In this document: positions 17,401-35,512 of the stretch, in pieces
Position numbering within the stretch: position 1 is the stretch's first letter
Layout: the number at the start of each line of letters is the position of its first letter
Source: a virus
Direction: 5' to 3' (one strand)
DNA: 64,000 bases
Virus record (IMG/VR): IMGVR_UViG_3300035181_000829
Location: 26,232-90,231 of that record
Made by a program: the position numbers and the translations under genes
Notes under the pieces: generated by a model
The model's input: the letters and a program-made list of their open reading frames with translations, nothing else
What the model was told of the DNA's origin: nothing
Database searches by the model: none

Positions 17401-17885
17401 CTCTCCTGTCAATCCGTTCAATAGCCGCGAGCCGTTCGATCCTATTTCGTCTCGCAGAATATGAGTTCCATGTAGTTGATGTATCGCATAGGGTATTCAC
17501 CAACAAGAGCAAGAGGTCTGACGCCGACCGAAAGGCTGCTGTCGGCAGTAGCGTAGGCCGTCATCACTTCCAGCCGAACGTGAGGCGCTTTTACCCACGT
17601 GCATTGATGGCCGATGTTGGTTCCGATTGATTTCAGATAATTGCGCTGAAATTCAATCATCGGAAGACTCTTACCGGGAGGTAGCTTGTGTTCGCTCGAC
17701 AGACGAATGTATTCCATCAGGTCGTCGTATTCCTGATCGACCAGCCTGCGGCGACGTTCGAGTTCCGCGAGTTTTCTCGCAGGTGTATATATGATGCGCA
17801 TTAGTGTGGCTCCGGTGTTTATAGTGGATTGTAGCATCGGGCCATCAGTGGTGCAAGTGGTAGTCCGCGTTCTGCTTTTGGACAT
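14399..17885 (-). other. Cluster of about 12 small hypothetical ORFs
   Basis: Contiguous overlapping minus-strand ORFs of 60-220 aa with RBSs; individual starts uncertain. Confidence 0.6.
15048..15707 (-). CDS. Cys/His-rich phage protein
   Basis: GYPVPF...LCAICGEKL...DPPMH.KCAEYALRVCPWL. Confidence 0.7.
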   Translation of the reverse strand: MAVMTEGIAKLPMHNGYPVPFIAYRGPMNRPEFAINDNRMVMQAILGGLCAICGEKLNKDAFLLGGIRSALDPRGCYRDPPMHQKCAEYALRVCPWLALPSYIGVKESVRQRQLATGAFVDMTVDPRKPSTFFMVKPDGMIVFDNEGSPQILPNRPMVYAEEWREGVCLRTYTAQQCATELRFRGLAMLKEDKLTVAQMPKIMRDSWAGKLRGRTPRVF

Positions 17886-18001
17886 TTTCGTTATATCTGC
17901 TAGGATTTTTCGTTATATCTTTTCGCTATATATGCTGGAAATTTTTAGACATTTTCGTTATAATCATTTGTACATTTTTGCTGGAAATTTTTAGACATTT
18001 C
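17881..18001. repeat. AT-rich short direct repeats
   Basis: TTTTCGTTATA x3 plus one variant; TGCTGGAAATTTTTAGACATTT x2. Confidence 0.8.
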
Positions 18002-18244
18002 ACGCTAGGGGGGTGTGTTTTAGGCGAATTGTGAAAGAATTGTGGCTTAAATGTGGCGGCTAGCGTAGGTGGCATATGCAGCGCAAGCGGCGATTGTCGC
18101 GATTAGCGCAAGGATAGGGTGCGCATTAGCATATCCCGTAATGGTATGGAGAAGGTCGGTATAGGTGGTATGGGCTTGCATAGTGTTATCCCGCGATGGT
18201 GTAGACGCGGGGCTTGAACCCCGCGTCGTGTTGAAGCTTGCGGC

Positions 18245-18766
18245 TTAGGCGGTGACGCTACCGTAGGTTTTGCCGCTTGCGGTGAATCGCAGCAGCAGTT
18301 GGGTTTGCCCGTCGGTGTAACCCGAATGCCCGTCCGCAAAGGTATGCTTCGCGCCGGTGCCCGCGACGGGTTCGAGAATGCCCGCGTTGATGAAAACGGC
18401 GGCAACCGCATTGTCGAGCCCGCGTGCAGGGAAGGGTTTGTCCGTGCCGTAGGTTTTGCGAATATTGTAGAGAAGCGGCATATCCCGTTCGGTGGAAGGC
18501 TTGCGCGCGTGAGCCGTGAGTTTGATAGCCGTTTTACGGTTGGCGTTGATCGGCTTCGATGCGCCGCCGTAACCCGATTGCAAGCCCGCTTCGCGATGGA
18601 AATGAACGAGAGGTGCTTTCGCCGGGATGGTGGTCGCCGGGATGGTGGTGACGGTTTCCGCTTTCGTGATGCGCTTGGCGCTTGCCGATTTCGCCGGGGT
18701 GCGCTTGGCGCGCGCCGGTTTCGCTGGGGCGATGGTAGCAGGAAGATTCGTGATGGTGTTTTGCAT
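18245..18766 (-). CDS. Lys/Ala-tailed putative DNA-binding protein, paralog 1
   Basis: PAK-rich N-terminus; clearly alignable to 22764..23258. Confidence 0.75.
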   Translation of the reverse strand: MQNTITNLPATIAPAKPARAKRTPAKSASAKRITKAETVTTIPATTIPAKAPLVHFHREAGLQSGYGGASKPINANRKTAIKLTAHARKPSTERDMPLLYNIRKTYGTDKPFPARGLDNAVAAVFINAGILEPVAGTGAKHTFADGHSGYTDGQTQLLLRFTASGKTYGSVTA

Positions 18767-19259
18767 GTCGTTAGTCCCGTTTGCGGCGCGCTTGATTGCG
18801 GTTGTGCCGTGACGCGATATTACGCGGCAATTGTGGCAAGAATAAGGCGCTTGCAATGGATTGTAAGCCGCGCGCGGGGGCCGCCGTGGAGTTGGGAAGG
18901 GGCGTCGGGAAGGGGCCGCCGTGACGCTGGAAGGGGTGCTACGCGGCAAGGTCGGGTTTAGGCTGTAAGGATATGTCGGGCGGCAGAGTTCGCCGTGTAG
19001 GACGAAAAAGGGTTTTCCGTAGGTGGAAACGGATTGTTGACCGCTATATGTAGTGTTACCCCGCGTTAGGTGCGGATTAGGTATTGACGCCGCGCCGGAA
19101 GTATGAATCGAGGCGGCAGGGCGATTCGCGCAAGAATGTTTCGTCGCTGATTTGGGGCGAATGCAAAAGTCGTTATGTGATGCCGCGCCGGAAACGATAA
19201 AGAGTGATTAGTCGTTATAACGAAACGGTAACGAATTGTTACGGAAGGCATTTTTCGGA

Positions 19260-19288
19260 TTGACGGTTGGGCGGTGGCATGTTATAAT
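19260..19288 (+). promoter_or_regulatory. Near-consensus rightward sigma70 promoter
   Basis: TTGACG-N17-TATAAT with extended -10 TG; opposite to all genes. Confidence 0.7.
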
Positions 19289-19303
19289 AGGGTGCCGGAC
19301 TGT

Positions 19304-19351
19304 GCCGCACAGCCTGTCAGCCGCACAGCCTGTCAGCCGCACAGCCTATCA
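19304..19351 (+). repeat. 16-bp tandem repeat x3
   Basis: GCCGCACAGCCTGTCA x2 plus GCCGCACAGCCTATCA. Confidence 0.9.
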
Positions 19352-19364
19352 ATCAATCAGCCTG

Positions 19365-19506
19365 TCATCTTCACCATCTCCATCATCTTCTACTCCTACA
19401 TGCACATTAACTACCCATCTTCTTCATCTTCGTTATCATGCACATTAACTACCCTACAACTTCTTCATCTTCATCATCTACTCCTACATATACATTAACT
19501 ACCCTA
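19365..19506 (+). repeat. G-poor tract with 3x CATTAACTACCC
   Basis: Copies at 19405, 19443 and 19493; only about 3 G in 140 nt. Confidence 0.9.
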
Positions 19507-19510
19507 GACA

Positions 19511-19549
19511 AAGAAAAGCCCCACATCTTTCAATGTGAGGCGATTCTTC
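19511..19549 (-). terminator. Intrinsic terminator, possibly bidirectional
   Basis: AAGAAAAGCCCCACAT-CTTTCA-ATGTGAGGCGATTCTT directly after the stop of 19548..19859. Confidence 0.6.
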
Positions 19550-19859
19550 ACCAATCGGTGTTGGCTTCGTCGTAGGCACGCTGGCTATGTGTGCCATAGA
19601 GTTCGATGCTGATGATCCTCGATTCGGGATAAGCTTCCCGCGCCTTGGTCCGCGCGTCGTTGGCCGACTTGGCGGTTTCTTCGACGGTAAATTCCATCCC
19701 GTCTTCGCCGAGGAGCAGGATTTCATACTTGATCTGCTTGATGGGTTCCGGCCCGGTGAGCACACGCATCTGGTGCTCCGTGAGGGCACGCTTGCCCGCC
19801 GCGACCTTGGTGATAGACTTCTGTGCGAGAAACGCCGCGATCAGTTCCGAGTCATTCAT
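19548..19859 (-). CDS. Small early hypothetical protein
   Basis: AACGGAGCAAA RBS and its own promoter cassette. Confidence 0.75.
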   Translation of the reverse strand: MNDSELIAAFLAQKSITKVAAGKRALTEHQMRVLTGPEPIKQIKYEILLLGEDGMEFTVEETAKSANDARTKAREAYPESRIISIELYGTHSQRAYDEANTDW

Positions 19860-19940
19860 TTGTTTGCTCCGTTTTTAGGGCATAAGTGCCCGCAGTTGTA
19901 TTCGCACGGGCACTTCTTTGTTGCAATGTATCGCAGCAGA
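19860..19940 (-). promoter_or_regulatory. Repeated promoter/leader cassette, copy 1
   Basis: Palindrome variant supplying TTGCAA, N17, GAATAC, then GGGCA-CTTA-TGCCC hairpin and AACGGAGCAAA. Confidence 0.75.
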
Positions 19941-20243
19941 TCAGATGCGGTATTTCAGGATGGTGTCGCCCTCGCGCAGTTCCCGGCTGAGAATGTAGTC
20001 TTCATACGGAATGTCGTGGGTGCCGCCCGCGTCGTAGTGGCGCATCACGCATCGAGCGAAGGCTTCCGGGTTTGCTTCCCACTCACCCATGATGGCCGAA
20101 CGTCCTACCTTAACGGTGAACCCGCCATCAACCATGCGGGAATGATCGTTGAACCAAACTTTCCCGGTTTCGCCGTCGAACTCGGCGGTGATGACCTGCC
20201 CACGATCAGTGTAGAGACGGGAGGTATTGAACGTGATCTTCAT
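19941..20243 (-). CDS. Small early hypothetical protein
   Basis: AGGAG RBS. Confidence 0.75.
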   Translation of the reverse strand: MKITFNTSRLYTDRGQVITAEFDGETGKVWFNDHSRMVDGGFTVKVGRSAIMGEWEANPEAFARCVMRHYDAGGTHDIPYEDYILSRELREGDTILKYRI

Positions 20244-20476
20244 TTGCTGTCTCCTGTGGAGGCAAAGTGCAGGTTGTAGACGCCATAGAAGCCGTTATCG
20301 GGGCAATCCCGCAGGCGAGTGCTTTCCGCCTTTGCTTCGAGTTCCGTGAATTTCTCGCGCGGGAAAAGGCGGCGATCCGAGTAGTCTTCGCTCCAACCCT
20401 CCATTCCGTGATAGGTGGTGTAGTATTGCGTCCCATCTTGGTTCCGCATGGTGATGTATCCGAGTTCCGTGGTCAT
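20240..20476 (-). CDS. Small early hypothetical protein
   Basis: ATG 20476 after the cassette RBS. Confidence 0.7.
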   Translation of the reverse strand: MTTELGYITMRNQDGTQYYTTYHGMEGWSEDYSDRRLFPREKFTELEAKAESTRLRDCPDNGFYGVYNLHFASTGDSK

Positions 20477-20558
20477 GGTCTTTGTTCCGTTTGTTATGGG
20501 CATAGGTGCCCGCAGAAACGTTACCGCGAGCACTTCTTTGTTGCAATGGATTGTAGCA
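20477..20558 (-). promoter_or_regulatory. Repeated promoter/leader cassette, copy 2
   Basis: TACAATCCATTGCAA-N17-TAACGT, then GGGCA-CCTA-TGCCC hairpin and AACGGAACAAA. Confidence 0.8.
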
Positions 20559-20885
20559 TTACTTTCTCGTCGGATCGTCCCCAACAATGAAGTAGAGAAA
20601 GCGGGTGGCTATGCTGTGGGCGGGAATGACGAACTCGCTCACGTCGTTATTCTCCTGTGCAGCAATACAGTAGGCGAGCGCAGCAAGCGCGTTCTCCACC
20701 GTGTTATACCAGCCTTTCGCATTGAGGAAATCACTGACCACGTAGGCGGCTTGGCCGGGTTGCTCGAACTCGGTGTCCATCACCGATCCGCCGCTAAGTG
20801 CGATGGTGCCGAGCGGTTCGCCAGTCTCGTTGGCATACTCCGCCATATCCACGTTGTCGATCACTTCACAGGTAACTTTGACCAT
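20559..20885 (-). CDS. Small acidic early hypothetical protein
   Basis: ATG 20885 after a GGAG RBS. Confidence 0.7.
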   Translation of the reverse strand: MVKVTCEVIDNVDMAEYANETGEPLGTIALSGGSVMDTEFEQPGQAAYVVSDFLNAKGWYNTVENALAALAYCIAAQENNDVSEFVIPAHSIATRFLYFIVGDDPTRK

Positions 20886-20967
20886 TTTATCGCTCCATTT
20901 GTTCATGGGCATGAGTGCCCGTGTTAACGTTCGCAGGGGGACAACATTGTTGCAATGGATTGCAGCG
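20886..20967 (-). promoter_or_regulatory. Repeated promoter/leader cassette, copy 3
   Basis: TGCAATCCATTGCAA-N17-GAACGT, then GGGCA-CTCA-TGCCC hairpin and AATGGAGCG. Confidence 0.75.
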
Positions 20968-21568
20968 TTACTTGTCATACCCAGCTTTGATGAGTTCGCG
21001 GATTGCAAGCAGCCCGCTAAGATGGGACTCGACCATCCTGTAGTAGGCGCCCGGTGTCACCCTTTTCAGTTCTTTCTGGTAATCTTCCACCAGCCAATCA
21101 ATTTCTGGCAGGATGAAGCCGCAGGCTGATTTTGACAACTTGACACCCGCGTTCGGGTGGAACTCCAAGCTGTCCTTGAACATTTCCTTGTAGGTGATCG
21201 CCATTTCATTTGCTCCGTTTGTGGTGGGCGGGTTGTTAGCCCGCCCGGTTTCGTTAGTAGCTTGCAAAAGTTTGCTTGCGACGTTTGCTAGGGTAAACGA
21301 CGCTAAACCGTTCCGTGGTTTTCCCGTTTACCGTGGCGATGATTTGCCGCGCGGCAGTGCAGCGCAGGATAACGAGTCCGCCGCAAGCGATTGCAGCAGT
21401 TTCGCCGGGTTGCAGTTCGATGATTTTGGCAACGTTGGAAAACGGATGCACGGGTTGCAGGTCGAAAGACCGCGTGCATTCCGAGCCGCGCGGAAAGAAG
21501 TTAACCGACGCACCCGTAAACGGGTTGTAGGAGAAGGAGAAGACGCTAGGCGTTTGCTTGCTAAGCAT
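20968..21568 (-). other. Two small hypothetical ORFs (20968..about 21204 and 21254..21568)
   Basis: ORF track; AACGGAGCAAA and AACGGGGC RBS. Confidence 0.65.
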
Positions 21569-21699
21569 GTTGGTAGCCCCGTTTGCTAAGGCATCCGCTT
21601 ATTACGGAATGCCGCAGCTTTATGTTATACGGACCCCTACATTGCTACAATTGATTATTATTATTCTTTGTTGCTGCCCGCGATCTATCTTCGCACTGC

Positions 21700-21860
21700 T
21701 ACATAACATCTTCTCCTTCTCCCGCGTATACTTCTCCTTCTCCTTCTTCTCCATCCGCATGTAATTCACCATCATCTCCATCAACTTCGTTATACCCATT
21801 AACTACCCTTCTTCTTCATCTTCAATGACTTACAATGCTCATTAACTACCCATCAACAAA
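21700..21860 (+). repeat. G-poor tract with CTTCTCC repeats and 2x CATTAACTACCC
   Basis: Copies at 21797 and 21840. Confidence 0.85.
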
Positions 21861-21897
21861 AAAATGGGAGACTCGACCATTGCTGGGAGTCTCCCTA
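21858..21897 (-). terminator. Intrinsic terminator
   Basis: A7 then GGGAGACTC...GAGTCTCCC. Confidence 0.7.
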
Positions 21898-21945
21898 GTT
21901 ACCCGCCCCAAACGGAACTAAAGAACGGGTTCGTTCGAATATCTG

Positions 21946-22329
21946 TTAGGCGATTACCACGAAGGACGTATGCTTGGTATCGCTGTAGAAGTTGTTCACG
22001 CATTCCTCGATCTGGTCCATTGCGTTGAACGCGCCCGCGCCCATGTCAGCGAAGCGGGCCGCTACTGTTTCCGCGTCCATTGCATTTAGTGCTCGGTAGA
22101 AGTGGGCGATCGGCACAACAAATCGGTCGCCCGGAACGTAGGAAGGTCCGCCGGGAATCACTCTCGTCAATGCAGAACAGAACGCGATGCCCGCCGCCGT
22201 TTCCACTTCTGTGTGGAGATACGCCGTGTTGATTTCCGCCACTTCCACGTCTTCGAGGGCAAGTGCCATCTGCACGAAAGTGGGACTATTCTCGAATTCG
22301 ACTTTGAAGATTGCGAGTTCCATTGTCAT
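21946..22329 (-). CDS. Early hypothetical protein
   Basis: AACGGAGCAA RBS; promoter TTGCAA-N17-AAATAT overlapping the palindrome variant at 22388. Confidence 0.7.
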   Translation of the reverse strand: MTMELAIFKVEFENSPTFVQMALALEDVEVAEINTAYLHTEVETAAGIAFCSALTRVIPGGPSYVPGDRFVVPIAHFYRALNAMDAETVAARFADMGAGAFNAMDQIEECVNNFYSDTKHTSFVVIA

Positions 22330-22549
22330 TTGCTCCGTTGTAGCGGGTCGTTCCCGCGATGTGATATTTGCAGGTAATCTCCCGCGTTGCAAGCGATTGT
22401 AGCGTTACAACCGGTATTCCGCAGGAACCCACGCATTACGTGCCAGTTCTTTTTCCGTTTACTTTGCTCCGTTTATGGCGGGTTGTTCCCGCAAGGATAT
22501 GATTGCACGTTACCATCGGTGCAGCAATCGATTATAACAGGTCTGCTAA

Positions 22550-22705
22550 TTTACCTTGTCTTCATCTACATAACGATCTTCATCTTCTTCTACTTCTTCA
22601 TCATCGTTATATTCATTAACTACCCATCTTCTACTTCTCCATCTTCGTTATCATTATATTCATTAACTACCCATCAACTTCAATGACTTAACCTATTAAT
22701 CTACA
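22550..22705 (+). repeat. G-poor tract with 2x CATTAACTACCC
   Basis: Copies at 22614 and 22661. Confidence 0.85.
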
Positions 22706-22706
22706 A

Positions 22707-22734
22707 GAAAAAAGGCGGACCTTACGATCCGCCC
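22707..22734 (-). terminator. Intrinsic terminator
   Basis: A-run then GGCGGA-CCTTACGA-TCCGCC after 22764..23258. Confidence 0.7.
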
Positions 22735-22763: not shown

Positions 22764-23258
22764 TTACGCCTTGCCGTATTCCATGCCGGCCTTGGTCAGA
22801 TGCACGGTGACTTGCGTCGTTCCATCGGTCAGGCATTCCTTGCCATCGATGTTGACCTTCATGCCGCCCGCCGTGCTGATGAGGCCGCAGGCCAGCAGAT
22901 CACGCAGCACCCCATTGTCAAGGCCCTTGGCGGGGAACGCTTGCGCGCCATACTTCGTCCGCAAGCCGTAGAGCGATTTCTGCATCCGGTCGGTCACCGC
23001 GTCCTTGGCGCGGGTGATGCCCAGCACGATCTGGACCTTGCGACCGGCGTTGATCGGGCTGGACGGGCCGCTGTAGTCAATGGTCAACCCCGCGTCGCGG
23101 TGCACATGCACCACCGGCTGCTTGGCGACCTTCGTGGCCGGAATGTTGTCGGCCTTCGGCGCAGCCGCCACCTTCGCCTTGGAACCCGGCAGGGTGATCT
23201 TGCGGGCCGGTTTGGTCGTTTTCGCAGCGGGAACAATAATTTCGCTTTTCGTGTCCAT
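22764..23258 (-). CDS. Lys/Ala-tailed putative DNA-binding protein, paralog 2
   Basis: High GC3 codon usage; C-terminal L...GLI...LTKAG is winged-helix-like; homologous to 18245..18766. Confidence 0.8.
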   Translation of the reverse strand: MDTKSEIIVPAAKTTKPARKITLPGSKAKVAAAPKADNIPATKVAKQPVVHVHRDAGLTIDYSGPSSPINAGRKVQIVLGITRAKDAVTDRMQKSLYGLRTKYGAQAFPAKGLDNGVLRDLLACGLISTAGGMKVNIDGKECLTDGTTQVTVHLTKAGMEYGKA

Positions 23259-23361
23259 GATGAACCTCTTTGGTTTGGACCCCAACCGTGTCGTTATTGG
23301 CGCGGCTGATGTGTTATGTTAGCATGTCGTTATAGTCGATTGCAACGATATAACGAGTTTC

Positions 23362-23689: not shown

Positions 23690-23975
23690 TTATCAATGAC
23701 TTACGTATATAACGAATAATACACCTTCAACATCAATGACTTATAAGGCACCTATCGATTGTAAGGAAAAACAACAACAATATCAGTGGCTTATACGTAT
23801 AACACATATTACGCCTTTAATATCAACAACTTACAAGGTGCCTATCGATTGTAAGAGAATCATCAACAATATCAACTACTTAACATATAACGGATAATAC
23901 ACCTTTAATATCAACAACTTACAGGAGCCTATCGATTGTAAGGAAAAACAACAACAATATCAATGGTTTGTAGAC
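23690..23975. repeat. AT-rich degenerate tandem repeat of about 88 bp x3 (candidate origin or terminus)
   Basis: CCTATCGATTGTAAG at 23751, 23841 and 23928; ATCAAYRACTTA-like sub-repeat every 40-49 bp. Confidence 0.85.
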
Positions 23976-26133
23976 CATCATAACGACTTCTTCATCATTG
24001 ACTTCATCTAATACATTAACTACCCTTCATCATCATTTCCTTTATTATCAATGACTTAGCCTACTAATCTACATTGCCATCACGCAAAACTTGGGGGACT
24101 GTTTAGCTGTGTTTAGCTATACTTAATCATATTATTACTATATATACTATCTATTAGTTTTTAGTAGTTTAGACCCGCGATGGAAGTTCTAGGCCCGCGA
24201 TTCTTCTAGAGAACCCGCGATTATGCTTACAATCGATTGTAGCGAAGTTTACACTATGCGTAGTGAACGCAAAAGAGATGTTATAGAACAAAGAAAGCAA
24301 TGACTTAAAAAATAAGTCGTTATATGCACAATGACTTTATCTTGGATTTTATTATAGTGGGGCTACCTATAGCCTGTCTATCGGTTTACCCCGCGTTTGT
24401 CGCCATAGGCTGCGTTGTATCCCATTTCAGTATTATCAAATGGATCAGTTGCCGTAGAATACTATCCATAGAATGCTTGACGCCACGGTGATCGTAATGC
24501 CAGTAAAGATGCCGAGGAAGAAAACCACGTTGACTACTACGGTGCTATGTTTGTTAGGTCTATCTAGCTTTGGTAGTTCTGGTGGGTAGACCCGCGTATG
24601 TGGTGTATATTCTATCTCCCCGCGATCCATTTCATACCGCGACCTGAAATCAGGGTGTTTCATTTCGGTTTCTGTTATCAGCAGACGCCGGTGATCCCGT
24701 ATTACCTTTGCGAGCGCGGGTATAAGGTTCTTGGATACCTCGTTCTCTCTCATGCGCAAATGGCAATATTCGTTATATTCTTCCATCTGTTAATTCGATC
24801 CTAACGGAGTGCGGCTACTTTATTCGGCATACTATCTATCTATTATCATACCTCTGGTGTTTCATGCTCAAACTTGTCTCTGTAGTAGATTGCCATATGA
24901 CGGCTTACCCCGCAAACGACAGGTCGCGCTTGGCCGTAGAATACCATATTCCCCTGTTGTTTGATGTTTTCAACGTCTTTCACACGAAAGACGGCCCAAC
25001 TGTAAATACTGTCGCCGTCATAGCGCCGGATCGTGAATACTTTCTTTGTCATGTTTACTCCCCGCGCCGCGCGTGCATTCCGGCGCTATCTATTGCCATC
25101 CATGCGTCGTCCCACGGATACCCCCGCGCGCACGGTCCATCTTGTCTTTTGCTGAACGCAGCGTCCTTGAACGGGGTTGCGAGCATGTCACGCAAAAGGA
25201 CCGTCCCGCCGTTCTCCAACCAAGTCTCGAAGTTAGAGGCGTAGAAGGCATCATCCATCGACTTCTGGATAATGGCACGCCAAAGAGGCAGCGCGTGTGC
25301 GCGGCTGACATGCTGATCATCTGGTTGGGCGTTGAGCATTTCTTCGATGCGGTCGAACACCTGATGGCAGGTAGGATTGTCTGGACGGCGAATCATCAGT
25401 CAATCTCCCATGTCGTGCGCCAGCCTGCGAGCTTTACTACACGCTCTGACTTGACTTGCTTGCGGTCGGGATTGGCAGCTATCAACCTACGCATTTCAGC
25501 GTCCGAAATGCGTCTGCCATTGAGGTAGTAACGAAGGCGATAGAGGTTGCCCCACTTCGATGCTGTCTCAACAAGTTTCATTTGATTTATCCTTGCTTAC
25601 GGCGAGCGAACCGAGCATACGGATGGAAGTCACCGCCCGTATTTTTGTCAATGAGGAATGCTTGCATGACGGGTTGCCCGTCATGGTTGTCGTTCAAGAT
25701 ACCATTGTTGTCATAGACGCCGTTGAATTCGCAGGCGACGACATTGAGGTGTGCTACCAAACACTTCGCAACGCTGATCGATTCAGACAAGAGGATCGAG
25801 TCATACTCCTGCGTGAGCGAAAGCATGACATTGTGGTCATAGTTGATAGAAATTTCTTCGAACACGTCGTTGTCGCGAAACACCGAATCAAGCACGAACG
25901 CAGCCGCTCCTGTATTCACGAAGTTGTCAGAATCAATCTCGAAAATATCTTTGACACACATAGCACCGAATTCATTCCTCTCTAGGAAGATTGCGCGAAC
26001 AACGCGCTTGGTTTTTTTGTCGAAAGAGGTGATTCCACAATCTATGATGAGTTTCATTCTGGTTTGCTCCGTTTGCTTGCGCGGTTACGTTCCGCGTATA
26101 TGTAGGGTAAACCCGTTACTTCTTCGTTGCAAT

Positions 26134-35250: not shown

Positions 35251-35512
35251 ACGTTACTATTTACGCGGTTTACTGCCTAAAAGTTTCATTAGCAATTCGC
35301 TTTTCTCCGCGCGATGAACAGGTGTCACCTTCTTATGCTAAACTGGCCTTGGAGGAACCAAACAAAGCGAGTATCAACATTGATAACATCTTGCTATCCA
35401 TTATCAGTTTCTTCCGCGTTTACTACATCATGAGTTATCAAAATTCATTAACTATCCATCTTCTACGCTTTTTGGCACATCGTCATTGGTTACAAAAAAC
35501 CATTAACTAATA

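What the first reader, a model, noticed from the sequence alone, without database searches (positions are those of the whole stretch)
19260..19549. Near-consensus promoter points the wrong way, into a repetitive non-coding tract
Seen: TTGACG-N17-TATAAT with extended TG on the + strand, while all genes are on the - strand. It is followed by 3x 16-nt GCCGCACAGCCTRTCA, then a G-poor tract with 3x CATTAACTACCC, ending at a hairpin shared with the converging gene. There is no credible ORF with an RBS. Inference: a small RNA of about 210-250 nt with repeated single-stranded motifs (protein sponge or decoy), or an RNA-polymerase-driven DNA-entry promoter.
Basis: partly seen in the sequence, partly recalled or inferred. 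Interest (0 to 1): 0.72.

Follow-up and report, generated by a model that had tools for sequence, protein, structure and literature searches.

The report
Backward promoter feeding a G-free spacer
A very strong promoter in a phage genome points against all the genes into one of four conserved stretches that almost lack G on one strand. It probably makes a short non-coding RNA that the host factor Rho would bind, but no RNA data exist to show this.

Summary
TTGACG-17-TATAAT with TG (19260-19288, + strand) is the best sigma-70 match in the whole 90-kb phage genome: 17.3 bits against 14.5 for the next. Only 1 of 300 genome shuffles reached 17.3 bits.

The promoter faces three 16-nt repeats, a 195-nt tract with 9 G, three CATTAACTACCC copies, and the terminator hairpin of the converging gene.

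The tract is not unique. It is the last of four such tracts, plus one short one, at boundaries between early transcription units. Cultured Rhodobacter phages of cluster RcF and one metagenomic relative have four tracts each. In RcDurkin they lie at matching positions, shown by four flanking protein matches. Each lineage has its own motif, all sharing CATTWAC.

All 12 tracts show a 3-base periodicity and have no usable reading frame.

The + strand RNA (about 250 nt) would be unstructured, untranslatable and C-rich with a hairpin after it. That is the published sequence signature of a Rho loading site.

My best reading (0.38) is that backward transcripts are made here and are loaded and stopped by Rho. 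A trans-acting sponge RNA (0.24) or a DNA-level role (0.2) remains open. The strong promoter is not conserved in RcF. No RNA data exist.

The parts
19212..19242 (.). Two operator-like palindromes just upstream of the -35: TCGTTATAACGA (19212-19223) and GTAAC-GAATT-GTTAC (19228-19242)
   Evidence: Read. TCGTTATA is found on both strands at 19212 and 19223. The 8-mer occurs 16 times in the genome against about 2.8 expected for both strands.
19260..19288 (+). Sigma-70-type promoter TTGACG-17-TATAAT with extended TG. The inferred start is near 19295.
   Evidence: 11 of 12 plus TG; 17.3 bits, the best of the genome; 1 of 300 shuffles reaches this score. The start site is inferred, not shown.
19304..19367 (+). 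Three 16-nt direct repeats GCCGCACAGCCTRTCA (19304-19351) plus a decayed fourth unit. Each holds the small palindrome ACAGCCTGT. In RNA they would form the 5' hairpin.
   Evidence: fold.
19340..19534 (+). G-poor tract T1 (9 G in 195 nt). C recurs every third base in phase-coherent blocks, and the tract holds three motif copies.
   Evidence: C/G 9.2 and 22 YC per 100 nt in the body 19352-19510.
19405..19504 (+). Three copies of CATTAACTACCC (19405-19416, 19443-19454, 19493-19504), spaced 38 and 50 nt apart
19518..19541 (-). Hairpin with a U-run: the intrinsic terminator of the converging - strand gene. On the + strand it would act as a pause or protective hairpin with only a weak U-run.
19548..19859 (-). 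Converging gene (103 aa, unknown function), 49% identical to RcDurkin gene 138
21694..21866 (+). Sister tract T2 (9 G in 173 nt, 2 motif copies), next to a - strand terminator hairpin read at about 21866-21900
22542..22714 (+). Sister tract T3 (8 G in 173 nt, 2 motif copies), next to the - strand terminator 22737-22710
23971..24083 (+). Sister tract T4 (6 G in 113 nt, 1 motif copy), just upstream of three tandem - strand promoters
35417..35473 (+). Short outlying tract with a one-mismatch motif copy
18833..19010 (-). Tract of the opposite kind in the same spacer: C-rich and G-poor when read on the gene (-) strand
   Evidence: 78-nt windows with C-G of 20 or more. The same arrangement follows the last tract in RcDurkin and G002.

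Best explanation
The window is part of a 90-kb tailed phage related to the RcF cluster of Rhodobacter capsulatus phages. All its genes run on the - strand.

The 19.3-24.1 kb region is cut into short early transcription units. At each boundary the order on the gene strand is: intrinsic terminator, then a 110-195-nt tract almost free of C (free of G on the + strand), then the next promoter.

Tract T1 (19340-19534) is the last of these before the probable pac site near 18000.

At T1 a near-perfect host-type promoter fires backwards. It would give a + strand RNA of about 250 nt with three parts: a 5' hairpin from the 16-nt repeats, an unstructured and untranslatable C-rich G-free body with C every third base, and the hairpin of the converging gene.

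This is the sequence signature of a Rho loading (rut) site followed by a pause or protective hairpin.

Most likely working: the host's Rho factor loads on backward transcripts in the tract and releases the polymerase at or just past the hairpin. The converging operon is then not read antisense. Exonuclease trimming back to the hairpin would leave a discrete RNA.

Shown: the sequence anatomy, its statistical strength, and its conservation.

Inferred: transcription from 19283, Rho loading, the RNA's ends, and any role of the 12-nt motif.
For: (1) Promoter strength. It is the best sigma-70 match of the genome on either strand (17.3 bits against 14.5 for the next). Only 1 of 300 shuffles reached it.

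(2) Rut criteria as printed in RhoTermPredict (PMC6407284, passages read). These are 78 nt with C>G (mean C/G 1.6 in E. coli), regularly spaced C, and a hairpin pause site within 150 nt downstream.
- The T1 body has C/G 9.2.
- Identity at lag 12 is 43% against 32% expected.
- The hairpin follows directly.
- The body is predicted almost unpaired.

(3) On the + strand, 78-nt windows with C-G of 20 or more fall in six places in the whole genome. Three of them are T1, T2 and T3.

(4) Conservation of composition, not sequence. Of the three genomes with tract clusters, RcDurkin and G002 each have four tracts poor in C on the gene strand, as G000 has four long tracts.
- The G000 region finds no DNA match in the 'phages' collection, which holds the RcF genomes.
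- Positions match G000 through 4 flanking RcDurkin proteins, Rc129, Rc135, Rc138 and Rc141.
- G002 is collinear with G000 overall.

(5) The same genome and its relatives place tracts of the opposite polarity where forward transcripts should stop: 18003-18080 and 18833-19010 in G000, and after the last tract in RcDurkin and G002.

(6) A stable hairpin not followed by a U-run, sitting at the 3' end of Rho-terminated RNAs, is described for E. coli (PMC6061677, abstract read).

(7) Moderate anti-gene promoter-like sites lie near the 5' edge of 7 of the 12 tracts. These are G000 T1 17.3, T2 8.2 and T3 7.4; G002 B 8.0, C 9.3 and D 9.8; and RcDurkin tract 2 7.6. From the hit density, my rough expectation by chance is 2 to 3. 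I did not test this formally.
Against: - No RNA evidence of any kind exists.
- The host is unknown, and I did not check for Rho in it.
- Rho loading explains neither the invariant lineage-specific 10-12-nt motif nor the strict 3-base periodicity. The predictor only asks for C every 11-13 nt.
- A two-way hairpin terminator would do the shielding job more cheaply.
- The strongest promoter of a genome is an odd thing to spend on an RNA that is only to be stopped.
- The strong promoter is not conserved. RcDurkin tracts 1, 3 and 4, G002 tract A and G000 T4 have no anti-gene site of 7.4 bits or more at their 5' edge.
- In Dar and Sorek's E. coli map the rut lies downstream of the protective hairpin. 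Here it lies upstream of it.
- In RhoTermPredict's own data, very high C/G did not give stronger termination.
Confidence: 0.38

Rival explanations
1. Trans-acting non-coding RNA. The roughly 250-nt + strand RNA is the product that matters. It would be an abundant, unstructured RNA whose repeated motifs or YC-rich body hold a host or phage factor (Rho itself, ribosomal protein S1 or 30S subunits, or an unknown motif-binding protein). Alternatively its motifs would pair with ribosome-binding sites.
For: - The genome's strongest promoter suggests that a lot of product is wanted.
- The predicted RNA has hairpins at both ends and an open middle displaying three identical 12-mers.
- G002 keeps a module TGnTATACT-GGAC at the 5' edge of two tracts. 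A metagenome fragment, L145, has TATAAT at the same place.
- In RcDurkin the motif's complement GGACAGTAAATG occurs 7 times on the gene strand. Two of these are the ribosome-binding site and start of annotated genes 113 and 136. The other five start mini-ORFs of 8-18 codons, one of them inside tract 4. An anti-gene RNA could therefore pair with real starts there.
Against: - The promoter is not kept at the matching tract of RcDurkin.
- In G000 the motif's complement occurs nowhere outside the tracts: 0 reverse matches with up to 1 mismatch.
- The blocks between motifs are similar low-complexity WTC repeats in all lineages, which is not what a specific pairing partner looks like.
- No Rfam family matches.
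- A G-free RNA cannot be a CsrA-type sponge.
- No RNA data exist.
Confidence: 0.24
2. DNA-level element. The tracts, their motifs and the neighbouring short repeats would be binding arrays for phage or host DNA-binding proteins. They would work as an accessory of packaging near pac, as a replication origin or unwinding element, or as an upstream element of the next early promoter. The backward promoter would serve only to open or activate the DNA.
For: - The spacers are crowded with several repeated DNA motifs. TCGTTATA occurs 16 times against about 2.8 expected, and is shared with the pac-like repeats at 17888-17955. There are palindromes at 19212-19242. IHF-consensus-like sites number 9 against 1.8 expected, and 6 of the 9 lie in 23691-24058.
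- The 16-nt repeats each hold a small palindrome and sit next to a stretch of 39% G+C, an arrangement like iterons beside an unwinding element.
- The 3-base periodicity, coherent over 40-90 nt, would fit a protein filament on single-stranded DNA.
- A pair of paralogous proteins flanks the tracts in G000 and RcF. They have a basic tail and a domain whose weak best fold matches are winged-helix regulators (E about 0.4, not significant).
- Tracts T2-T4 abut the upstream side of gene-strand promoters.
Against: - Double-strand binders give 10-11-bp phasing, which is absent.
- Extreme one-strand base depletion over 100-260 bp is not a known need of any of these DNA functions.
- The likely initiator and helicase genes lie 35 kb away.
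- Four copies would mean four origins.
- With headful packaging, only the pac site itself is needed.
Confidence: 0.2
3. Gene-strand RNA element. Transcripts that read through the terminator would carry a C-free, purine-rich leader with several ribosome-binding-site look-alikes and mini-ORFs. This leader would be immune to Rho, prone to R-loops, and able to load ribosomes.
For: - On the gene strand the motif reads as a Shine-Dalgarno-like sequence plus ATG (GGGTAGTTAATG). In RcDurkin the equivalent is a real gene start twice.
- Mini-ORFs of 2-12 codons follow 7 of the 8 exact copies; the eighth is followed by a 59-codon ORF.
- G-rich RNA on a C-rich template favours RNA-DNA hybrids (established knowledge, recalled).
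Against: - The tracts lie directly behind good intrinsic terminators, so little forward RNA should reach them.
- The mini-ORFs are not conserved in length or sequence.
- The strong promoter points the other way.
Confidence: 0.1
4. RNA-polymerase-driven DNA-entry promoter, as at the leading end of T7.
For: The promoter points away from the probable pac site, inward from the end that a first headful would inject first. This is inferred and from the likeness of 17886-18000 to the left end of RcDurkin.
Against: - The relatives package by P1-type headful, so later headfuls have other ends (PMC8601537).
- The unit meets a hairpin after about 250 nt and runs head-on into every gene.
- The promoter is not conserved in RcF.
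Confidence: 0.03

Closest known systems
Rho-dependent terminators / rut sites (consensus as used by RhoTermPredict, PMC6407284; 3'-end hairpins of Rho-terminated RNAs, PMC6061677; lambda tR1 named from recall)
   Same: An unstructured, untranslated, C-rich and G-poor RNA of 78 nt or more with regularly spaced C, followed by a hairpin.
   Different: - It is far more extreme: C/G 9.2 against a mean of 1.6.
- C recurs strictly every 3 bases, not every 11-13.
- It carries invariant 12-nt motifs.
- It is fed by its own consensus promoter.
- It acts on the strand that carries no genes.
- The rut lies upstream, not downstream, of the hairpin.
Promoter-early/stem-loop cassettes (PeSLs) at gene boundaries of T4-type phages
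   Same: Repeated terminator-plus-promoter modules flank small, variable early genes. A low-depth contig joins tract T1 to tract T3 (19479 to 22559, depth 2, run X2), which hints at exchange between such modules.
   Different: As I recall them, PeSLs have no long one-strand base-depleted tract and no backward promoter.
Protein-sponge small RNAs (CsrB/RsmZ type; recalled)
   Same: Repeated short motifs are displayed in single-stranded RNA between terminal hairpins.
   Different: Their defining GGA motifs cannot exist in a G-free RNA. No partner protein is known here.
Phage VIPR guide RNAs (bioRxiv 10.64898/2026.04.26.720920; abstract and Results read)
   Same: Several phage-encoded non-coding tracts of about 100-250 nt lie in spacers. 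Each is built from a short-period repeat and ends in an invariant element.
   Different: The period here is 3, not 5, and there is no GGY. The variable positions are not hypervariable but are the same WTC-type units in all lineages. No RAMP-like protein was identified. Only one neighbouring protein was folded, and it looks winged-helix-like.
Small backward RNAs of temperate phages (lambda oop, P22 sar; recalled)
   Same: A strong promoter points against the local genes and makes a short RNA ending at a hairpin.
   Different: Those RNAs overlap and silence a specific coding gene. This one overlaps only a spacer and a terminator.

Membership tests
Sigma-70-type bacterial promoter | -35 and -10 hexamers near consensus, with a 16-18-nt spacer | tested here: met
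   TTGACG-17-TATAAT gives 11 of 12 matches plus TG. At 17.3 bits it is the top of the genome, reached by 1 of 300 shuffles.
Sigma-70-type bacterial promoter | Transcription starts about 7 nt downstream of the -10 | not testable with these tools
   No RNA run holds this phage.
Rho-dependent terminator (rut plus pause site) | A window of 78 nt or more with C>G in the RNA | tested here: met
   C/G is 9.2 in 19352-19510. T1, T2 and T3 are three of the six + strand places in the genome with C-G of 20 or more per 78 nt.
Rho-dependent terminator (rut plus pause site) | Regularly spaced C, unstructured and untranslated RNA | tested here: met
   Period-3 C gives 43% identity at lag 12 against 32% expected. 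The body is almost unpaired in the fold. There is no ORF with a possible Shine-Dalgarno.
Rho-dependent terminator (rut plus pause site) | A hairpin or pause site within 150 nt downstream | tested here: met
   The hairpin at 19518-19541 follows directly after the tract.
Rho-dependent terminator (rut plus pause site) | Termination depends on Rho | not testable with these tools
   This needs Rho inhibition or depletion, or in-vitro termination. The host is unknown.
CsrB/RsmZ-type protein sponge RNA | Many GGA motifs in loops or single strands | tested here: not met
   There are 6 G in the 159-nt body. The feature is recalled.
VIPR vrRNA | 9-16 tandem units of 5 nt with a conserved GGY and hypervariable NN | tested here: not met
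   Identity at lag 5 is 17-31% across the 12 tracts, against 28-33% expected, while lag 3 gives 34-55%.
VIPR vrRNA | An adjacent vipr (RAMP-fold) gene | tested here: inconclusive
   Ten neighbouring small proteins have no Pfam or PHROG hit. Only one was folded (pLDDT 69), with weak winged-helix-like matches.
Iteron-type replication origin | Direct repeats beside an easily melted stretch, in or near the initiator gene | tested here: inconclusive
   Three 16-nt repeats sit beside a tract of 39% G+C. However, the helicase, primase and polymerase genes lie at 44-56 kb, and there are four such tracts.
T7-type entry promoters | Promoters at a fixed leading genome end, reading inward over a long distance | tested here: not met
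   The relatives package by P1-type headful with variable right ends. This unit ends after about 250 nt at a hairpin.
Cis-antisense RNA (oop/sar type) | Overlaps a coding gene or its ribosome-binding site on the other strand | tested here: not met
   The stretch 19295-19545 overlaps only the spacer and the terminator. The gene begins at 19548.

The most novel reading that the evidence does not exclude
The four tracts encode a family of phage non-coding RNAs of a kind not yet described. Each would be a G-free RNA with one fixed base in every three, ending in an invariant lineage-specific 10-12-nt handle. The T1 copy is made from the strongest promoter of the genome. Such RNAs could act in either of two ways. 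They could be decoys that soak up host Rho (or S1 / 30S subunits) and so lift termination or shut off the host. Or they could be periodic scaffolds bound base-triplet by base-triplet by a phage protein, a period-3 counterpart of the period-5 VIPR guide RNAs.
Probability: 0.12. Interest if true: 0.85.

Novelty: new variant of a known kind. Interest (0 to 1): 0.55.

Why it matters
If the reading holds, this phage group marks the borders of its early transcription units with two devices. A hairpin terminator stops forward traffic. An unusually pure Rho loading tract stops backward traffic.

At one border the phage also drives the tract from its best promoter.

That would be a clear natural example of designed two-way insulation in a phage. 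It would also be a possible first case of a phage RNA that engages Rho in bulk.

The element is kept in cultured Rhodobacter capsulatus phages (RcDurkin, RcTiptonus, RcMenchie, RcKickapoo). The question can therefore be settled with ordinary infection RNA-seq and a few deletions.

The unexplained parts may point to a partner protein that nobody has looked for. These parts are the invariant motif that changes from lineage to lineage around a CATTWAC core, and the strict 3-base periodicity without any reading frame.

Tried and rejected
Protein coding on either strand: rejected.
- All three gene-strand frames are broken in all 12 tracts.
- Motif spacings of 38, 50, 43 and 47 nt are not multiples of 3.
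- The + strand ORFs lack any possible Shine-Dalgarno.
- The recurring pseudo-peptide xVVN plus an acidic run has no start codon. In RcDurkin the motif repeats with a 7-nt period.

Known RNA family: none.

Phage single-subunit RNA polymerase or phage sigma factor as reader of the motif:
- PF00940 gave 0 of 2 records, but its control genomes did not ring either, so this says little.
- PF04542 gave 0 of 2 records, with the control positive in 10 of 14 genomes.

The motif as a general feature of related phages:
- CATTAACTACCC with up to 1 mismatch is absent from 5 of 5 polymerase relatives, G001-G005.
- A collection-wide pattern scan gave 28 single chance hits.

Long G-free tracts, scanned over 30 records (G000, G002 and 28 further polymerase relatives):
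- Clusters occur only in G000 and G002.
- G006, G007, G015 and G021 have one short tract each.
- The other 24 have none.
- G001, G003, G004 and G005 were scanned by script with nothing comparable. G001 is only 48% complete.

Variation among populations. Four DNA metagenome runs hold the region almost unchanged, so they give no conservation signal. The only change inside T1 is a 9-nt insertion in run X3.

The four RcF genomes are nearly identical over tract 4, so there is no covariation to read.

Expression: no RNA holder is listed.

DNA similarity to known phages: none for 18000-21000.

The neighbouring 103-aa protein has no relative in viral contigs. The paralogue family has none in viral contigs and 2 short contigs in metagenomes.

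Ten small neighbouring proteins have no Pfam hit and no PHROG hit.

Fold of the paralogue: only non-significant winged-helix-like matches. I use it as a lead only.

Literature. Searches found no paper on such tracts or on an RNA decoy for Rho. One search found 2 papers that hold the term RcDurkin, 1 of them listed. I read passages of PMC8601537, and they do not mention 'intergenic' (0 occurrences). Supplements were closed and could hold end-mapping details for RcF phages.
Full report
WHAT THE WINDOW IS

The window is bases 26232-90231 of a 90,231-base phage record from IMG/VR, estimated 96% complete. All six of the ten large ORFs that matched PHROG families lie on the - strand: DNA polymerase, portal, two helicases, a UvsX-like recombinase and an ATPase/HNH protein.

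The nearest cultured relatives, by large terminase (70% identity), are four Rhodobacter capsulatus phages: RcDurkin, RcTiptonus, RcMenchie and RcKickapoo. The paper on these phages places RcDurkin and RcTiptonus in cluster RcF. It describes P1-type headful packaging from a pac site, with a defined left end and a variable right end (PMC8601537, passages read).

THE OBSERVATION

- TTGACG (19260) - 17 nt - TATAAT (19283), with TG two bases before the -10.
- Three 16-nt repeats at 19304-19351 (3.0 copies, 96% matches). They are found nowhere else in the window.
- A tract at 19340-19534 with only 9 G in 195 nt.
- Three CATTAACTACCC copies.
- A hairpin at 19518-19541 that, read on the - strand, is followed by a U-run. 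It sits 7 nt after the stop of the - strand ORF 19548-19859.

The promoter is not a chance match. In a weight-matrix scan of both strands of the whole genome it is the single best site, at 17.3 bits against 14.5 for the next. Only 1 of 300 shuffled genomes reached 17.3. Two palindromes sit just upstream of its -35, at 19212-19223 and 19228-19242. They look like operators.

THE TRACT IS ONE OF A FAMILY

CATTAACTACCC occurs 8 times exactly and once with one mismatch. All copies are on the + strand, against 0.09 expected. None lies in the rest of the genome.

The copies lie in G-poor tracts at 19340-19534, 21694-21866, 22542-22714 and 23971-24083, plus a short one at 35417-35473. These are five of the seven + strand G-poor tracts of the genome. 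The other two, 23856-23924 and 24107-24171, flank the fourth tract in the same spacer. Only two short tracts poor in C on the + strand exist, at 18004-18189.

T1, T2 and T3 each end, on the + strand, at the terminator hairpin of a converging - strand gene. No terminator hairpin was seen beside T4.

T2, T3 and T4 begin just upstream of the next - strand promoter. So the tracts fill the gaps between a terminator and the next promoter of successive short early units.

CONSERVATION

Two other lineages have the same device.

G002 is a complete 90-kb metagenomic phage with polymerase 48% identical, collinear with G000. It has four tracts poor in C on its gene strand at 65.9-69.7 kb.

RcDurkin has four, at 87694-87932, 89156-89305, 91221-91382 and 92934-93108. 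All lie in unannotated gaps.

The DNA itself is not conserved: the G000 region finds no match in the 'phages' collection, which holds the RcF genomes. But four flanking RcDurkin proteins match G000 proteins:
- Rc138 is 49% identical to 19548-19859.
- Rc135 is 40% identical to 21254-21568.
- Rc129 is 43% identical to 22764-23285.
- Rc141 is 37% identical to 22764-23285, over 81 residues.

T1 therefore corresponds to RcDurkin's fourth tract, the last before the genome's left end.

The repeats at RcDurkin's left end resemble the 46-bp repeats at 17907-18000 of the window. The pac site of G000 is therefore probably near 18000. This is an inference.

Each lineage has its own motif at the terminator end of the tracts: CATTAACTACCC in G000, RTTTACAAYCT in G002 and CATTTACTGT in RcDurkin. 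All share CATTWAC.

In more distant polymerase relatives such clusters are absent. Of 30 records scanned, only G000 and G002 have them; four have one short tract and 24 have none. Nothing comparable was seen in G001, G003, G004 or G005.

WHAT THE TRACTS ARE MADE OF

All 12 tracts show a 3-base periodicity. Identity at lag 3 is 34-55% against about 30% expected, and about 20% at lags 1 and 2. The fixed base is C on the anti-gene strand. The phase holds for 40-90 nt and shifts at the motif copies.

The tracts are not coding. All three frames of the gene strand are broken in every tract. The motif spacings are not multiples of three.

Read on the gene strand, the motif looks like a ribosome-binding site with ATG. 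In RcDurkin, GGACAGTAAATG is the start of annotated genes 113 and 136 and of several mini-ORFs. In G000 the 12-mer occurs only in the tracts.

WHICH STRAND AND WHAT MECHANISM

Forward RNA should mostly stop at the terminators just before the tracts. Backward RNA is what the T1 promoter would make.

From about 19295 to the hairpin is about 250 nt. The fold shows a 5' hairpin built from the 16-nt repeats, about 165 nt almost unpaired, and the 3' hairpin (-40.3 kcal/mol, z = -3.9).

The body has C/G 9.2 and 22 YC dinucleotides per 100 nt. On the + strand, 78-nt windows with C-G of 20 or more fall in six places in the genome; T1, T2 and T3 are three of them.

These are the features by which Rho loading sites are defined and predicted: at least 78 nt with C>G, regularly spaced C, no structure, no translation, and a hairpin pause site downstream (PMC6407284, passages read).

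Stable hairpins without a U-run mark the processed 3' ends of Rho-terminated RNAs in E. coli (PMC6061677, abstract read).

The genome also places tracts of the opposite polarity where forward RNA should be stopped. These lie at 18833-19010 in the same spacer and at 18003-18080 before the pac-like repeats. RcDurkin and G002 do the same after their last tract.

I therefore read the family as two-way insulation of early units. The hairpin terminator serves forward traffic and the Rho loading tract serves backward traffic. T1 is actively transcribed from its own promoter.

WHAT THIS DOES NOT EXPLAIN

- It does not explain the invariant motif or the strict period of three.
- It does not explain why the best promoter of the genome should feed an RNA that is only to be stopped.
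- The strong promoter is not conserved. Anti-gene promoter-like sites of 7.4 bits or more lie near the 5' edge of 7 of 12 tracts, but only T1's is outstanding. RcDurkin's matching tract has none.
- G002 has a shared TGnTATACT-GGAC module at two tracts. A 1.3-kb metagenome fragment has TATAAT at the same relative place. So backward promoters recur but are not universal.

Two rivals therefore stay open.
- A trans-acting RNA, as sponge or decoy; Rho itself would be the obvious candidate.
- A DNA-level role. The spacers are dense with other repeated DNA motifs, and a pair of possibly DNA-binding paralogues flanks the tracts.

The DNA-entry idea fits neither headful packaging nor a 250-nt unit.

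COMPARISON WITH KNOWN SYSTEMS

The tract meets every sequence criterion of a Rho-dependent terminator that I could test. Rho dependence itself cannot be tested here.

It fails the defining features of three other kinds:
- CsrB-type sponges, because it has no GGA.
- VIPR guide RNAs, because the period is 3 rather than 5 and there is no GGY.
- Cis-antisense RNAs, because it overlaps no gene.

It resembles the terminator-promoter cassettes of T4-type phages in place and context (recalled), but adds the tract and the backward promoter.

Earlier notes of this scan report G-poor one-strand tracts at unit borders or genome ends of several other phages, mostly read as Rho pads. I treat these as leads, not support.

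VERDICT

The feature is real, strongly non-random and conserved as a kind. I class it as a new variant of a known kind: an extreme, motif-bearing, promoter-fed Rho-type tract.

Confidence in the Rho-stop mechanism is 0.38. No expression data exist. The cultured RcF phages make the question directly testable.

Noticed in passing
window 17886-18000: Tandem 46-bp repeats (2.1 copies) carry TCGTTATA and TGCTGGAAATTTTT. They resemble the repeats in the first 250 bases of RcDurkin, whose left end is reported as a pac-cut end. This is the probable pac site of this phage.
   Followed up: partly
window 18003-18080 and 18833-19010 (- strand reading): These tracts are C-rich and G-poor on the gene strand. 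The first follows a perfect 9-bp hairpin without a U-run, just after the stop of gene 18245-18766. This is the layout of a Rho-type terminator for forward transcripts before pac. RcDurkin and G002 show the same arrangement after their last tract.
   Followed up: partly
window 23691-23966: Three 90-bp tandem repeats each carry a - strand promoter (CTGATA or TTGATA, 16-17 nt, TACAAT; 10.2, 13.0 and 14.0 bits). They also carry sites fitting the recalled IHF consensus WATCAANNNNTTR. Of 9 such sites in the window, 6 lie in 23691-24058, against 1.8 expected for the whole window. This looks like a cluster of strong early promoters, or possibly an origin.
   Followed up: partly
window 18245-18766 and 22764-23285: Two paralogous 173-aa proteins (36% identical) have a basic Ala/Lys/Pro-rich tail and a conserved C-terminal domain. 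Homologues in RcDurkin are genes 129 and 141. Only 4 cluster hits turned up in 5.8 billion proteins. The fold has pLDDT 69, and its best matches are non-significant winged-helix regulators. They are candidate binders of the spacer motifs.
   Followed up: partly
window 19415 (run X3) and 19479/22559 (run X2): One metagenome population carries a 9-nt insertion (CATCTTCTT) inside T1. One low-depth contig (depth 2) joins T1 to T3 and skips 3079 bases. This hints at slippage and at recombination between tracts, or it may be an assembly artefact of the repeats.
   Followed up: no
locus L141 (RcDurkin 74001, 80747, 82066, 87262, 87399, 91809, 92892): The 12-mer GGACAGTAAATG occurs seven times on the gene strand. 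Two copies are the starts of annotated genes 113 and 136. The other five start mini-ORFs of 8-18 codons, several of them just upstream of genes.
   Followed up: partly
window, genome-wide (e.g. 20555, 22536, 24228/24241): The palindrome TRCAATCGATTGYA recurs throughout the genome. I counted 34 copies of the 12-nt half-pattern, mostly on the - strand. RcDurkin has the related TTGCAATCGATTGCAA at its early promoters. This is the subject of other notes of this scan and was not studied here.
   Followed up: no
record G015 (relative reached through L062), 17703-17838: A G-poor tract is built of repeated TTAACCATATTTC units. TTAACCAT is, from recall, a CtrA-type half-site motif of alphaproteobacteria.
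   Followed up: no
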